The notes beneath the pieces are model-generated. The model searched no databases and was not told the origin of the DNA. It worked only from the letters and a program-made list of their open reading frames with translations. Both the position numbers and the translations under genes were made by a program. Source: Promethearchaeota archaeon (GTDB lineage Archaea > Asgardarchaeota > Lokiarchaeia > Sigyniarchaeales > SOKP01). From it: a DNA stretch of 64,000 nucleotides. Positions 10,789-14,647 of the stretch are shown piece by piece; the first letter of the stretch is position 1; every line of letters starts with the position of its first letter. The DNA is taken from contig JAEOTR010000084.1 in assembly GCA_016839705.1 (NCBI GenBank), positions 1 through 64,000 on the forward strand, in the 5' to 3' direction.

Positions 10789-10985
10789 AATTATCGGTCT
10801 TAATCCTTCTAAATTTTTTTGCTAAAATACTAATAGAGTTAACTGTTTTAAATTTAAACCTATCCTAAGATAAGTGTTCCTCCTAAGAATAAGAATTTAT
10901 AGCTTAAATTCATAAAACTTTTATGATTTCACGTATTCTATTCCTTAATTAGAATATGAAAATATAGATAAAAAGAATTTAACAA

Positions 10986-10990
10986 GGTGA
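10986..10990 (+). promoter_or_regulatory. SD-like GGTGA, 7 nt before the putative ATA start of the EF-2 paralog
   Basis: aaGGTGAaaaacttATAgtc; in-frame TAA at 10980-10982 excludes an upstream start. Confidence 0.65.
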
Positions 10991-10997
10991 AAAACTT

Positions 10998-13280
10998 ATA
11001 GTCAAAGTAAAAAACCCAGAAGAAATTGCTCAACTGGTAACTTCTGGTTCTTATGATAAGAAAAGGATCTTCAGCATCACTGCTCATATTGATCACGGAA
11101 AGACTACCGCAACGGATTACCTATTAAGAAGAGCAGGATTAATGAGACCCGAGGATGCCGGACAGCTCCAAATGACAGATTCAGATTTAGATTAAGATCT
11201 ACTTGATCTACTGAAAGACGAGGAGCAAGCCCGCGGTATTACTATTTTTACAAGTGTAGTGTTACTAGCATTCAATGACTCTAGAAAACCAGATGATCCT
11301 GAACCTTATATTATTCAATTAAATGATACTCCTGGTCATATTAGTTTTACCGGAGAAGTATCGCGAGCTCTTAGAGGTAGCGATGGTGCTATAATTCTGG
11401 TTGATGCGCTTGAAGGTGTTATGACCCAAACAGAGACTAATATTCGTTTATCTGTTGGTGAGGAATACTGTAAACCAGTTTTATTCATTAACAAAGTTGA
11501 CCGATTGATAAGTGAATTGAAGTTAAGTCCTCAAGACACGTTTGCTAGAATAGACAAAATCACACGCGAAGTTAATGAACTTATAAGAAAAATTCGACCC
11601 GAAGGTTCTGATTGGAGTATTGACTTCGCTAAAAATTCTGTTGCAGTTGGTTCAGCAAAACATGGTTGGGGTTTTACTTATGAAATCTTACTCGAAAAGG
11701 GACTAAAACCACAAGATGTTTTCGCAAAATATAACGAAGGAGATATCCAATGGTTAAGGGATAATCTACCATTAGACGAACCCATGTTAAGAATGATTGT
11801 TGATCATCTTCCTGATCCTATTACCGCTGCTAAATACAGGATCCCTCATATATGGGGAGGTGACCTAAGTTCAGAACTTGGACAATCTCTCGTGAAGAGT
11901 GACCCAAATGGTCCACTTTATGGGATGATTACAAAAATTTTTCTCGATCCTAAAAGGAATTATCAAGCTACACTTATCGGTCGTGTTTTTTCAGGCACAT
12001 TTGACCAAACTGACTCAATATACTTAATTAATAGTGATTCAAGCAATCGGGTAAAGAGGTTAGGTGTTATGGAAATAACAGATCTTTTAGATATTTCTAG
12101 GATCCCTGCTGGAAACCTGTTTGCATTGTTTGGTTTTGTATGCCCTGCAGGTGAAACATTTATGTTAACAAATGATGTACCAAAGGATAAAGAAGAAAGA
12201 AAATTGTTGCATCCCTTTGAAAAAATTCAATACGCATGCGAAGCGGTTGTATCAAGAAGCATTAAACCAAAAGATCCACATGAAATTGATAAATTAGACG
12301 AAGTAGTTGGAAAATGGCTTAAAGCGAATCCCGAGGCAGAATACCGAAGAGATGAAGAATCTGGTGAATTTGTACTCTCTGGAATAGACCCTCTCCAAAT
12401 TGAAATCTTAACTAAGAGAATTAATAACCAAGTAGAAATAAGCATTGGAGAACCAATTATTATTTACAGAGAAAAAATTACGAAAAGGAGTCCTGAATTT
12501 CATACAAAATCAGCAAATACACACAATCGTATTTTGTTATACATCGAACCTTTAGATGAAACTACAGAAAAATTAATCGAAACTGGTAAAATAAATGATT
12601 TGCAAAGTGAAAAAGATAGAGCTCAAATACTTAGGGAAGATGCAGGATGGGATGCAAAAGAAGCAAGACGAATTGTTGACGTGTATCAAGGAAGTCTACT
12701 TGTGAATGGTACTTCAGGATTACAGAGATTTGATCGTGTAAAATCCTATTTGAGTGCTGCTTTTAGGGATTGGATTGGTAATTGTATAATTGCGAAAGAA
12801 CCTGCGACGGGTATTAAAGCCGTCTTTTTGGACATGACTATACATGAAGACCCCCGTCATACGCAATATGGACAGATTGCAGGTATGCTGTTCTCAGGTT
12901 TAGCACTTGCCATGTTGGATGCAGGTCCTCATCTGTTTGAGCCTGTACAGAGAATCGATATAAAAACGCCCCAAGGTACGGAAGGAGGTGTAACTGCAAT
13001 AATCTCTAAGCGTCGAGGAAGAATAACTAACGTTATTCCTGAAGGTGAATACGTTAGAATCAAAGGTCAGATTCCTACTGCCGAACAAATCGGCATTGCG
13101 GATGATATCCGAGGCTCAACTCAAGGAAGGGCATTTTTTGGCTACGAGTTTAAGGGATTTGAAAAAGTACCTGCTTCTTCAGAAGAAGATCTAATTTTAG
13201 AGATTCGCAAACGTAAAGGAATGGCACTAGAAATGCCAAATAGAAAGAGTTGGGAGCGTTTTATTTATAAACGGACCTAA
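10998..13280 (+). CDS. elongation factor 2 family protein, probably Asgard paralog aEF-2p; join(10998..11186,11217..13280), about 750 aa
   Basis: Upstream of the tracked ORF the same frame encodes G1 AHIDHGKTT and QMTDSD. After a 30-nt insert it continues DEEQARGITI, DTPGH, NKVD and domains II-V. Diphthamide loop is divergent (HEDPRHTQYGQI). Putative ATA start. Confidence 0.92.
11187..11216 (+). other. putative BHB-type 30-nt mRNA intron in EF-2 paralog
   Basis: Central helix TCAG(11181-84)/CTGA(11211-14); 3-nt bulges ATT(11185-87) and AAG(11215-17); 9-bp stem TAGATTAAG/CTTGATCTA with a 5-nt loop. Contains an in-frame TAA; removal gives MTDSDDEEQARGITI. Confidence 0.85.
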
Positions 13281-13335: not shown

Positions 13336-13934
13336 TTAAGAGAAACTGCTTATCTTAGCGATCATATATAATTTTTTCACTAGAGCTTGAAACGCATCGG
13401 TTACCCTTTGTCCTGTTAAAGCACTTGTTTTGTAATACCCTACAAATCTATTCTCTTTAGCAAATCGCTCTATATTACTATCTGATGTTGGTATATTTGG
13501 ATTCGAACCTAATTCCCCTTCATCAACCAAATCCACTTTATTTCCAAATAATACAATTGGTATATTCCCACAATGTGTTTTTAAGTCATTAAGCCATCTA
13601 GGAACATGTTCATAAGTCTGAGGTTGGTCATGAGAGTGAGAAAAAACAATTATAGCTCCACTACTCCCCGTATAGAATCTTTGGCGGAGTGCTTGAAAAG
13701 AATCTTGACCTGCTATATCCCAAAGATACAATTCAACTTTCTCACCATCAATAACCTCTTCATATTTAGAAAATTGCGTTCCAAGAGTTGAGATATACTC
13801 TTTCTGAAAAGCACCTTGAGTATATTTTTTGATTAATGATGTCTTTCCAACGGCTCCATCTCCAATAATTCCACTCTAAAGAATTTATTCAATAGATCTG
13901 TGATTTTGAAGCCGTAGCCTTTTTCAGTACTCAC
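13336..13934 (-). CDS. Rab/Ras-like small GTPase; complement(join(13336..13868,13898..13934)), 189 aa
   Basis: Spliced sequence MSTEKGYGFKITVIGDGAVGKTSLIKKY...YISTLG...WDIAGQ...GNKVD...KTSALTG is colinear with the neighbour paralog 14093-14647. The ORF track shows only the C-terminal part. Confidence 0.9.
13869..13897 (-). other. putative BHB-type 29-nt mRNA intron in Rab-like GTPase
   Basis: Minus strand aaaa-TCAC-aga-TCTA tt GAAT aa ATTC tt TAGA-GTGG-aat-tatt: 4-bp helix TCAC/GTGG (one G.U), 3-nt bulges AGA and AAT. Cutting after the second bulge base restores the frame and KITVIGDG. Confidence 0.85.
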
Positions 13935-14092
13935 TTTTTCCAACCACCGTTTTTTTAAATTTCTCTTTCTTTGATTAGTAAAAGTTAGATGTTTTAAATT
14001 TTTACAAAAGATTATCCTTCTAAAATCGAAATAAAAGACAATATTATCCGTATATGTTAAAAAAACTACTAATGTGGAATATAAAAAGTAAT

Positions 14093-14647
14093 TTAAATTG
14101 TAGCTCGTTGGTATAATCTAAATACTAAGGTTTGAAAAGCTTCTTTTACACCCTGACCTGTTAAAGCGCTTGTTTTATAATATTTAATAATCTTATGATC
14201 TTGGGCAAATTTCTTTACATGAACATCTGAAGTTGCATAATTTGGGCTTGTAGCTACTGCATTTTGATCGACTAAATCCGCTTTATTTCCAAATAAAATA
14301 ATAGGGATATTCCCACATGCTTCTCTAATATTTGACAACCATTTATCAATGTGTTGATACGTTTCAAGTTGTTCAGGAGCAAGAGAAAATACAATAATAG
14401 CACCGCTACTTCCTTTATAAAATCTGTCACGTAGAGTGCTAAATGACTCTTGACCCGCTAAATCCCATAAAAACAAATCAACCAATTCTCCATTCAGAAT
14501 TTCTTCATATTTCGAAAATTGCATACCTAACGTAGAAATATAATCTTTTTCAAATGTATTTGATGTATATCTTTTAATAAGTGAAGTTTTACCTACTGCT
14601 GCATCACCCACTACCGTTATTTTAAATCCAAAAGCCTTTTCACTCAT
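14093..14647 (-). CDS. Rab/Ras-like small GTPase (intron-less tandem paralog)
   Basis: GDAAVGKTS, YISTLG, WDLAGQE, GNKAD, KTSAL. Confidence 0.95.
   Translation of the reverse strand: MSEKAFGFKITVVGDAAVGKTSLIKRYTSNTFEKDYISTLGMQFSKYEEILNGELVDLFLWDLAGQESFSTLRDRFYKGSSGAIIVFSLAPEQLETYQHIDKWLSNIREACGNIPIILFGNKADLVDQNAVATSPNYATSDVHVKKFAQDHKIIKYYKTSALTGQGVKEAFQTLVFRLYQRATI

What the first reader, a model, noticed from the sequence alone, without database searches (positions are those of the whole stretch)
13868..13903. 29-nt frameshifting BHB intron just before the P-loop of a Rab-like GTPase, with an intron-less paralog next door
Minus strand TTCAAAA-TCAC-AG|A-TCTAttGAATaaATTCttTAGA-GTGG-AA|T-TATTGGAGAT. 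Removing 13869-13897 creates a Val codon across the junction (G|TT) and gives GFKITVIGDGAVGKTS, matching GFKITVVGDAAVGKTS of the tandem paralog at 14093-14647. The paralog has no insert and serves as an internal control. Unspliced, the frame stops at TAA 13833-13835. This would be an intron in a eukaryotic-signature-type gene.
Basis: partly seen in the sequence, partly recalled or inferred. Interest (0 to 1): 0.92.

Follow-up and report, generated by a model that had tools for sequence, protein, structure and literature searches.

The report
Mobile mini-intron in Asgard GTPase genes
A small GTPase gene of an Asgard archaeon is broken by a 29-base hairpin shaped like the introns that archaea cut out of tRNAs; the gene is clearly alive, so its messenger RNA is very probably spliced, and the same mini-intron sits at the same codon of a different GTPase gene in related species, which suggests that it is copied between genes.

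Summary
Observation confirmed. Removing 13869-13897 restores a 189-aa Ras/Rab-like GTPase (B); unspliced it stops after 33 codons. The host is a Promethearchaeota (Loki-type) archaeon with intact EndA and RtcB genes. The gene is under purifying selection (dN/dS 0.065 against the one other species with the insert in B); 39 other B orthologues have none. The same intron, at the same codon, occurs in a distant paralogue (C) of 4 genomes and 4 metagenome contigs, including a 28-nt form. It falls in four separate places on the gene tree, always with the same 21-nt exon context, which none of 129 intronless genes has. The alignment folds de novo into the bulge-helix-bulge. This genome holds at least 7 such 27-32-nt inserts. 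Best reading: an mRNA intron spliced by EndA/RtcB (0.88), probably spread by short gene-conversion patches (0.55). No spliced read was seen: the one RNA run does not cover the junction. This copy folds 2 kcal/mol off its predicted minimum. The scan has noted such introns before on other DNA, including one in a Rab-like GTPase; I found no note on sharing between paralogues. In print I found only cbf5 and a Haloferax 5' UTR case.

The parts
13898..13934 (-). Exon 1 of small GTPase B: GTG start, 12 codons plus 1 base, most of strand beta1
   Evidence: the orthologue in G027 starts with ATG at the same place
13869..13897 (-). 29-nt bulge-helix-bulge intron (I1), phase 1 in a Val codon, frameshifting
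13336..13868 (-). Exon 2 of GTPase B: P-loop to C-terminus, no C-terminal Cys
   Evidence: Pfam Ras E 1.4e-40; dN/dS 0.065 against G027
13900..13903 (-). Central 4-bp helix, 5' strand (exon)
   Evidence: Paired in 100% of cells over 9 copies, with U-G/U-A exchange at one pair
13871..13874 (-). Central 4-bp helix, 3' strand (intron)
13897..13899 (-). 5' bulge; predicted cut between 13898 and 13897
   Evidence: cut position inferred from the known EndA rule and from the codon alignment
13868..13870 (-). 3' bulge; predicted cut between 13869 and 13868
   Evidence: as above
13875..13896 (-). Intron hairpin: 4-bp stem, variable 2x2 region, 3-bp stem, 4-nt loop (3 nt in the 28-nt form)
13904..13919 (-). 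5' arm of the long exon-exon helix, made of coding sequence
13852..13867 (-). 3' arm of the exon-exon helix (P-loop codons)
13944..13948 (-). GGTGG, a possible ribosome-binding site 9 nt before the GTG start
   Evidence: Read from the sequence; function inferred
14093..14647 (-). Tandem paralogue A, 184 aa, no insert
11187..11216 (+). Second, unrelated 30-nt bulge-helix-bulge insert with an in-frame stop in the neighbouring EF-2 paralogue gene

Best explanation
The 29 nt are an intron in a protein-coding mRNA. The transcript folds into a long hairpin: an exon-exon helix of about 12 bp, a 4-bp helix flanked by two 3-nt bulges, and an intron stem-loop. The tRNA splicing endonuclease EndA cuts after the second base of each bulge and RtcB joins the exons, which restores the Val codon and lets the 189-aa GTPase be made; unspliced RNA yields a 33-aa junk peptide. 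Shown: the insert, the fold of the family, the live gene, the enzyme genes. Inferred: cutting and joining in the cell, and which enzymes do it. History (inferred, about 0.55): the intron arose at this codon in one GTPase gene and moved as a short DNA patch (intron plus about 20-30 nt of flank) by gene conversion or recombination between look-alike beta1/P-loop sequences, within paralogue C across lineages and once between C and B. Direction C to B is the more economical reading but is not shown. No benefit to the host is needed: it can be a tolerated, splice-able insert that persists because it sits where any leftover would kill the protein.
For: (1) Exact frame repair, 112/189 identity to paralogue A. 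(2) 39 of 41 B orthologues lack the insert exactly; the two carriers are sisters, 100/92. (3) Exon 2, G000 vs G027: dN 0.066, dS 1.02, ratio 0.065, while the insert keeps 25/29 bases. (4) The same intron in paralogue C of G012, G029, G035, G089 (21-24/29 identical to the B copies; 7-14/29 to six other introns of this genome) and in contigs L283-L286. (5) A 28-nt form, one base lost in the apical loop, gives the same joined protein. (6) In G035 and G089 both reading frames are closed inside the insert. (7) RNAalifold predicts the motif unprompted; 93% of cells pair against 39-50% for slid partners. (8) Exon-exon helix -22.3 to -27.5 kcal/mol in 6 carriers against means of -11.4 to -12.5 (best -19.4) in 129 non-carriers, same linker for all. 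(9) EndA and RtcB without stops. (10) Motif-free comparison with G022: 6 of 60 insertions have the motif, all 27-32 nt, 0 of 60 in mirror geometry. (11) For transfer: four separate places on the exon-2 tree, one clade rejected (AU 1.5e-27 for all carriers, 2.6e-5 within C). G012/G029 differ from their sister G063 at 6 of 7 synonymous sites just upstream, against 12% in exon 2 (binomial 1.9e-5).
Against: No spliced RNA was seen. The window's own copy prefers another register by 2.1 kcal/mol in ViennaRNA; z-scores against shuffles are only -0.8 to -1.4. Formal covariation is weak: 2 pairs with changes on both sides, 18-154 of 500 shuffles as high, most pairs invariant. Only one EndA subunit gene was found, and a single-subunit enzyme may need a stricter motif than the one-pair exon-side closure here. 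For transfer: most of the shared flank bases also pair in the hairpin, so selection on structure could make them converge; the variable intron sites look saturated, so identity cannot date anything; carriers are few and related, so the energy contrast and the binomial overstate.
Confidence: 0.88

Rival explanations
1. Same splicing, other history: the intron is older than the split of paralogues B and C (or than the genus) and was lost many times by recombination with intronless alleles or cDNA; nothing was copied between genes.
For: Precise loss does occur: G027 C lacks the second intron (I2) although nested among carriers, 100/82 and 100/99, and keeps their codon pattern. Counts of changes on a tree cannot tell gain from loss. 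Intron distances look saturated.
Against: It needs loss in paralogue A (0/36), in several B branches and in many C branches. Intronless sisters (G077 B, G063 and G032 C) show no trace of the carrier codons, and G063 and its outgroup G032 share the ordinary codons. No intronless gene with the carrier context was found in GTDB genomes or JGI metagenomes (0 of 10 hits with a gap of 0 allowed).
Confidence: 0.3
2. The insert is removed, but not by EndA/RtcB on mRNA (another nuclease or ligase, or excision at the DNA level in part of the population).
For: The own copy folds weakly into the motif and the exon-side closure is short; the enzyme assignment is by analogy.
Against: The codon-defined ends fall exactly on the EndA cut positions in three different introns here (I1, I2, EF-2). 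There are no terminal repeats or mobile-element genes nearby. No intronless DNA with this context was found.
Confidence: 0.05
3. No splicing: the protein is made by ribosomal frameshifting, hopping, or a start at the ATT codon before the P-loop.
For: In G000 and G027 the exon-1 frame runs open through the insert; an ATT codon precedes the P-loop.
Against: In G035 and G089 the first frame stops at the third insert codon and the second frame stops near the insert end, so no single shift works; L283-L285 have the same early stop. The 28- and 29-nt forms would need different shifts. There are no matching take-off and landing codons. An ATT start would drop strand beta1, a core strand of the Ras fold (established knowledge), and exon 1 stays conserved as protein.
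Confidence: 0.04
4. Dead gene: the insert inactivated a redundant paralogue.
For: The genome has about 50 small-GTPase matches, and an intact paralogue lies next door.
Against: dN/dS 0.065 over dS of about 1 between the two carriers, and 0.04-0.12 among C carriers; no other lesion in any carrier.
Confidence: 0.02

Closest known systems
Bulge-helix-bulge intron in the cbf5 pre-mRNA of Crenarchaeota (Watanabe 2002; Yokobori 2009, PMC2738675)
   Same: A short intron inside a coding sequence, splitting a codon in a conserved functional region; ends at the EndA cut positions; patchy gain and loss among relatives.
   Different: Asgard host; small GTPase gene; at least 7 such inserts in one genome instead of one gene; one intron shared by two paralogous genes; two different introns at sites 2 nt apart in one gene family; splicing not yet shown here, whereas cDNA confirmed it for cbf5.
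HVO_1309 5' UTR substrate of the Haloferax volcanii splicing endonuclease (PMC7714728)
   Same: An mRNA cut by EndA at a bulge-helix-bulge motif.
   Different: That motif is in the untranslated leader; here the reading frame depends on removal.
tRNA intron transposition in Thermoproteales (Fujishima 2010, as cited in bioRxiv 10.64898/2026.10.13.758758)
   Same: Near-identical bulge-helix-bulge introns at matching positions of different genes.
   Different: Here protein-coding paralogues, with shared exon flanks. The same preprint found no such copying among Asgard tRNA introns and leaves the route of arrival open. No copy of this intron was found outside the GTPase site in 154 genomes.
Asgard Rab-like small GTPases (Ras superfamily; PMC4915359, PMC10933270, abstracts only)
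   Same: Pfam Ras; best solved matches Ypt31 and Rab11.
   Different: No C-terminal Cys; about 8 extra residues after the G4 motif; no intron mentioned in what I read.

Membership tests
Archaeal BHB (EndA-type) intron | 4-bp central helix flanked by two 3-nt bulges on opposite strands | tested here: met
   Predicted de novo from 9 copies; central helix 100% paired
Archaeal BHB (EndA-type) intron | Cuts after the second base of each bulge coincide with the ends of the insert | tested here: met
   The 29-nt removal so defined restores the codons of intronless orthologues
Archaeal BHB (EndA-type) intron | Closing helix on the intron side | tested here: met
   4-bp stem, pair probability 0.86-1.0 in all copies
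Archaeal BHB (EndA-type) intron | Closing helix on the exon side directly after the 3' bulge (strict hBHBh') | tested here: inconclusive
   One A-U pair, an A.A mismatch, then a long helix; RNAalifold draws a 2x5 loop, so the motif is relaxed
Archaeal BHB (EndA-type) intron | The motif is the favoured fold of this very transcript | tested here: inconclusive
   2.1 kcal/mol above the minimum in the window copy; equal to the minimum in 8 other copies
Archaeal BHB (EndA-type) intron | Host encodes EndA and RtcB | tested here: met
   PF01974 E 1e-27 and PF01139 E 1.8e-169, no stops; 197-aa EndA with Tyr, His and Lys in the expected motifs, judged by eye
Archaeal BHB (EndA-type) intron | Spliced RNA exists in vivo | tested here: inconclusive
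   The only RNA run served has no contig over the junction
Archaeal BHB (EndA-type) intron | Cleavage by EndA in vitro | not testable with these tools
   Bench experiment
Group I or II self-splicing intron, or insertion sequence | Ribozyme core of hundreds of bases, or terminal repeats with a transposase | tested here: not met
   29 nt, a single hairpin, no ORF
Ras-superfamily small GTPase | G1-G5 motifs and Pfam Ras match | tested here: met
Eukaryotic Rab | C-terminal prenylation cysteines | tested here: not met
   The protein ends without Cys; Rab-like only

The most novel reading that the evidence does not exclude
Loki-type Asgard archaea splice many mRNAs with the tRNA machinery, and their mini-introns spread laterally as short DNA patches between paralogous genes and between lineages. 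This locus would then show a route of intron gain in Asgard archaea, which a 2026 preprint on their tRNA introns leaves open, in a eukaryotic-signature gene family.
Probability: 0.5. Interest if true: 0.86.

Novelty: new variant of a known kind. Interest (0 to 1): 0.74.

Why it matters
The papers I could search document splicing inside an archaeal coding sequence for one gene (cbf5). Several splice-dependent protein genes per genome in the closest prokaryotic relatives of eukaryotes would mean that translation there must wait for RNA processing, without a spliceosome or nucleus. It also means that gene callers truncate these proteins: this one is called as 131 aa without its P-loop. The sharing of one intron by two old paralogues makes the question of how such introns arrive directly testable, on a defined 70-nt patch with intronless sister alleles for comparison. 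The chemistry (protein endonuclease plus RtcB) is that of tRNA and XBP1-type splicing, not of spliceosomal introns, so it is no evidence for their origin.

Tried and rejected
RNA evidence: one metatranscriptome (X1, share 0.06, contigs only). It holds one 246-nt piece identical to the EF-2 paralogue gene, but nothing over either junction and nothing on exon 1 or the intron of B; no joints. Uninformative. A pattern allowing a gap of 0-29 nt found no joined form in JGI metagenomes or GTDB genomes; these are DNA collections, so this says nothing on splicing. A first homology-free genome scan timed out and was replaced by a comparison with G022, which misses introns shared with G022, very short first exons and genes absent from that 81%-complete genome. 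A tRNA intron or other gene as source of this intron: no look-alike in the own genome at up to 8 mismatches or in 154 genomes by an exact core pattern. Paralogue A as donor or ancestor: 0 of 36 carry it. L288, labelled Hodarchaeota, is 98% identical to the G012 region and ends at a contig edge; probably misbinned, not counted as a transfer between classes. A second EndA subunit was not found. Seven literature searches found no paper on Asgard mRNA introns; the library lacks most subscription journals. No structure or complex prediction was run, as no claim needed one.

Full report
Observation. A GTG at 13934 opens 12 codons that match the N-terminus of small GTPases; 29 nt follow (13897-13869); the rest, from the P-loop on, lies in another frame and ends at 13336. 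Joined, the gene gives 189 aa, 112 of them identical to the tandem paralogue A at 14093-14647. Unspliced it ends after 33 codons at TAA 13835-13833. Exon 2 and paralogue A match Pfam Ras; the best solved matches of A are Ypt31 and Rab11. Named records of the closest relatives are Promethearchaeota. The ends of the insert fall after the second base of two 3-nt bulges around a 4-bp helix; 0.15% of random genomic 29-mers do as well in any of six registers.

The gene is alive. Of 41 orthologues of this gene (B) collected in the genus, only G000 and G027 carry the insert; the other 39 lack it exactly. The two carriers are sisters on the exon-2 tree (100/92), with intronless G077 next. Between them exon 2 has dN 0.066 and dS 1.02 (ratio 0.065), and the insert keeps 25 of 29 bases while 56% of synonymous sites differ. 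A dead gene would not behave so.

The same intron in another gene. A pattern search of 154 genomes of the order found six carriers. Four of them (G012, G029, G035 and G089, the last in another genus) hold the intron not in B but in paralogue C, about 51% identical to B and at another locus, at the same Val codon. Metagenome contigs L283-L286 add four more C copies; two near-identical ones are 28 nt long, with one base lost in the apical loop and the same joined protein. B and C copies share 21-24 of 29 bases; six other introns of this genome share 7-14 with it. In G035 and G089 both frames are closed inside the insert, so no single ribosomal frameshift can pass.

Structure. RNAalifold predicts from nine copies, unprompted, the exon-exon helix, the 4-bp helix, the 5' bulge and the intron stem. 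93% of cells pair against 39-50% for slid partners; the central helix always pairs, with a U-G/U-A exchange. Formal covariation is weak because most pairs never vary. The exon side closes with one A-U pair and an A.A mismatch before the long helix, so the motif is slightly relaxed. In eight copies the motif equals the minimum free energy at 37 C; in the window copy it is 2.1 kcal/mol above. The codons around the site are tuned: the exon-exon helix scores -22.3 to -27.5 kcal/mol in six carriers against means of -11.4 to -12.5 in 129 intronless genes. The genome encodes EndA and RtcB without stops; no second EndA subunit was found.

Not a single case. The EF-2 paralogue next door has a 30-nt insert with an in-frame stop at 11187-11216, kept in 14 of 30 relatives and absent exactly in the rest, with a G-C to A-U exchange in its stem. 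Paralogue C of this genome (contig C97) has a different 30-nt motif-bearing insert (I2) two bases upstream of the I1 site, shared with five other genomes. A motif-free comparison with G022 gave 60 insertions of 12-75 nt; 6 have the motif, all 27-32 nt, and none has the mirror geometry. With the EF-2 insert, which G022 shares, that is at least 7 in this genome, and a lower bound.

History. On the exon-2 tree I1 needs four changes, all forced by well-supported branches; one clade is rejected for all carriers (AU 1.5e-27) and for the C carriers alone (2.6e-5). The six genome carriers share an identical 21-nt exon context that none of 129 intronless genes has (nearest: 2 mismatches; most: 4-8). 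No intronless gene with that context turned up in GTDB genomes or JGI metagenomes. G012 and G029 differ from their intronless sister G063 at 6 of 7 synonymous sites just upstream of the junction, against 12% in exon 2, and G063 shares its codons with the outgroup G032. This is what a short converted patch would leave. The rival is an old intron lost many times: precise loss is seen for I2 in G027, and most shared flank bases are also under selection to pair. I put lateral spread at about 0.55.

RNA. The one run served is a sediment metatranscriptome kept as contigs. It touches the EF-2 gene but neither junction, so splicing is untested here.

Known and new. Closest is the cbf5 mRNA intron of Crenarchaeota (PMC2738675), called the only such mRNA case in 2020, when a Haloferax 5' UTR substrate was added (PMC7714728). 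A 2026 preprint finds Asgard tRNA genes rich in such introns, does not mention mRNA, and finds no route of arrival, copying included (10.64898/2026.10.13.758758). I found no paper on Asgard mRNA introns, but the library is incomplete. The scan's own notes report the phenomenon in many other genomes, some with joined RNA, and one in a Rab-like GTPase; I did not check their RNA claims and do not count them as evidence. A search of the notes for sharing between paralogues found nothing.

Verdict. A real insert, very probably an EndA/RtcB-spliced mRNA intron (0.88), one of several in this genome; a new variant of a known kind. Its special value is the evidence that one intron occupies the same codon of two paralogous genes. 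Interest 0.74.

Noticed in passing
window 11187-11216 (+): 30-nt bulge-helix-bulge insert with an in-frame stop in the GTPase domain of the EF-2 paralogue; present in 14 of 30 relatives, with one compensatory pair change.
   Followed up: yes
L051 (G017) and L053 (G077), EF-2 paralogue, just before the HIDHGK motif: Another 30-nt stop-containing insert at a second site of the same gene; G017 has both inserts.
   Followed up: no
G000 contig C97, about 90070-90099 (-); locus L100: Paralogue C carries a different 30-nt intron (I2) two bases upstream of the I1 site; also in G019, G034, G066, G067, G077; precisely absent in nested G027.
   Followed up: partly
G000 contigs C85:74326, C29:8703, C56:55470, C56:61216, C49:124157: Further 27-32-nt inserts relative to G022. 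Four have the motif (iscU-like, mevalonate-kinase-like, a CoA-activase-like gene and one unidentified gene); the thioredoxin one is imperfect. Gene names are from motif memory.
   Followed up: partly
L028 (G013): A single gene with the N-terminus of paralogue A and the C-terminus of B, with a 1-nt frameshift near residue 44; a recombined pair or a collapsed assembly.
   Followed up: no
L288, 140-197: A contig labelled Hodarchaeota holds 322 nt 98% identical to the G012 intron-bearing gene at its edge; probably misbinned or chimeric.
   Followed up: partly
whole genome: ARAGORN finds only 31 tRNA genes, many with implausible introns or anticodons, as expected if tRNAs carry introns at non-canonical sites; a tRNA-Sec is called.
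   Followed up: no
window 13336-14647 (-): Both tandem GTPases lack C-terminal cysteines and have about 8 extra residues after the G4 motif compared with Ypt31.
   Followed up: no
window about 10985-13280 (+): The EF-2-like protein has a divergent diphthamide region, like the Asgard EF-2 paralogue recalled from the literature; not tested.
   Followed up: no
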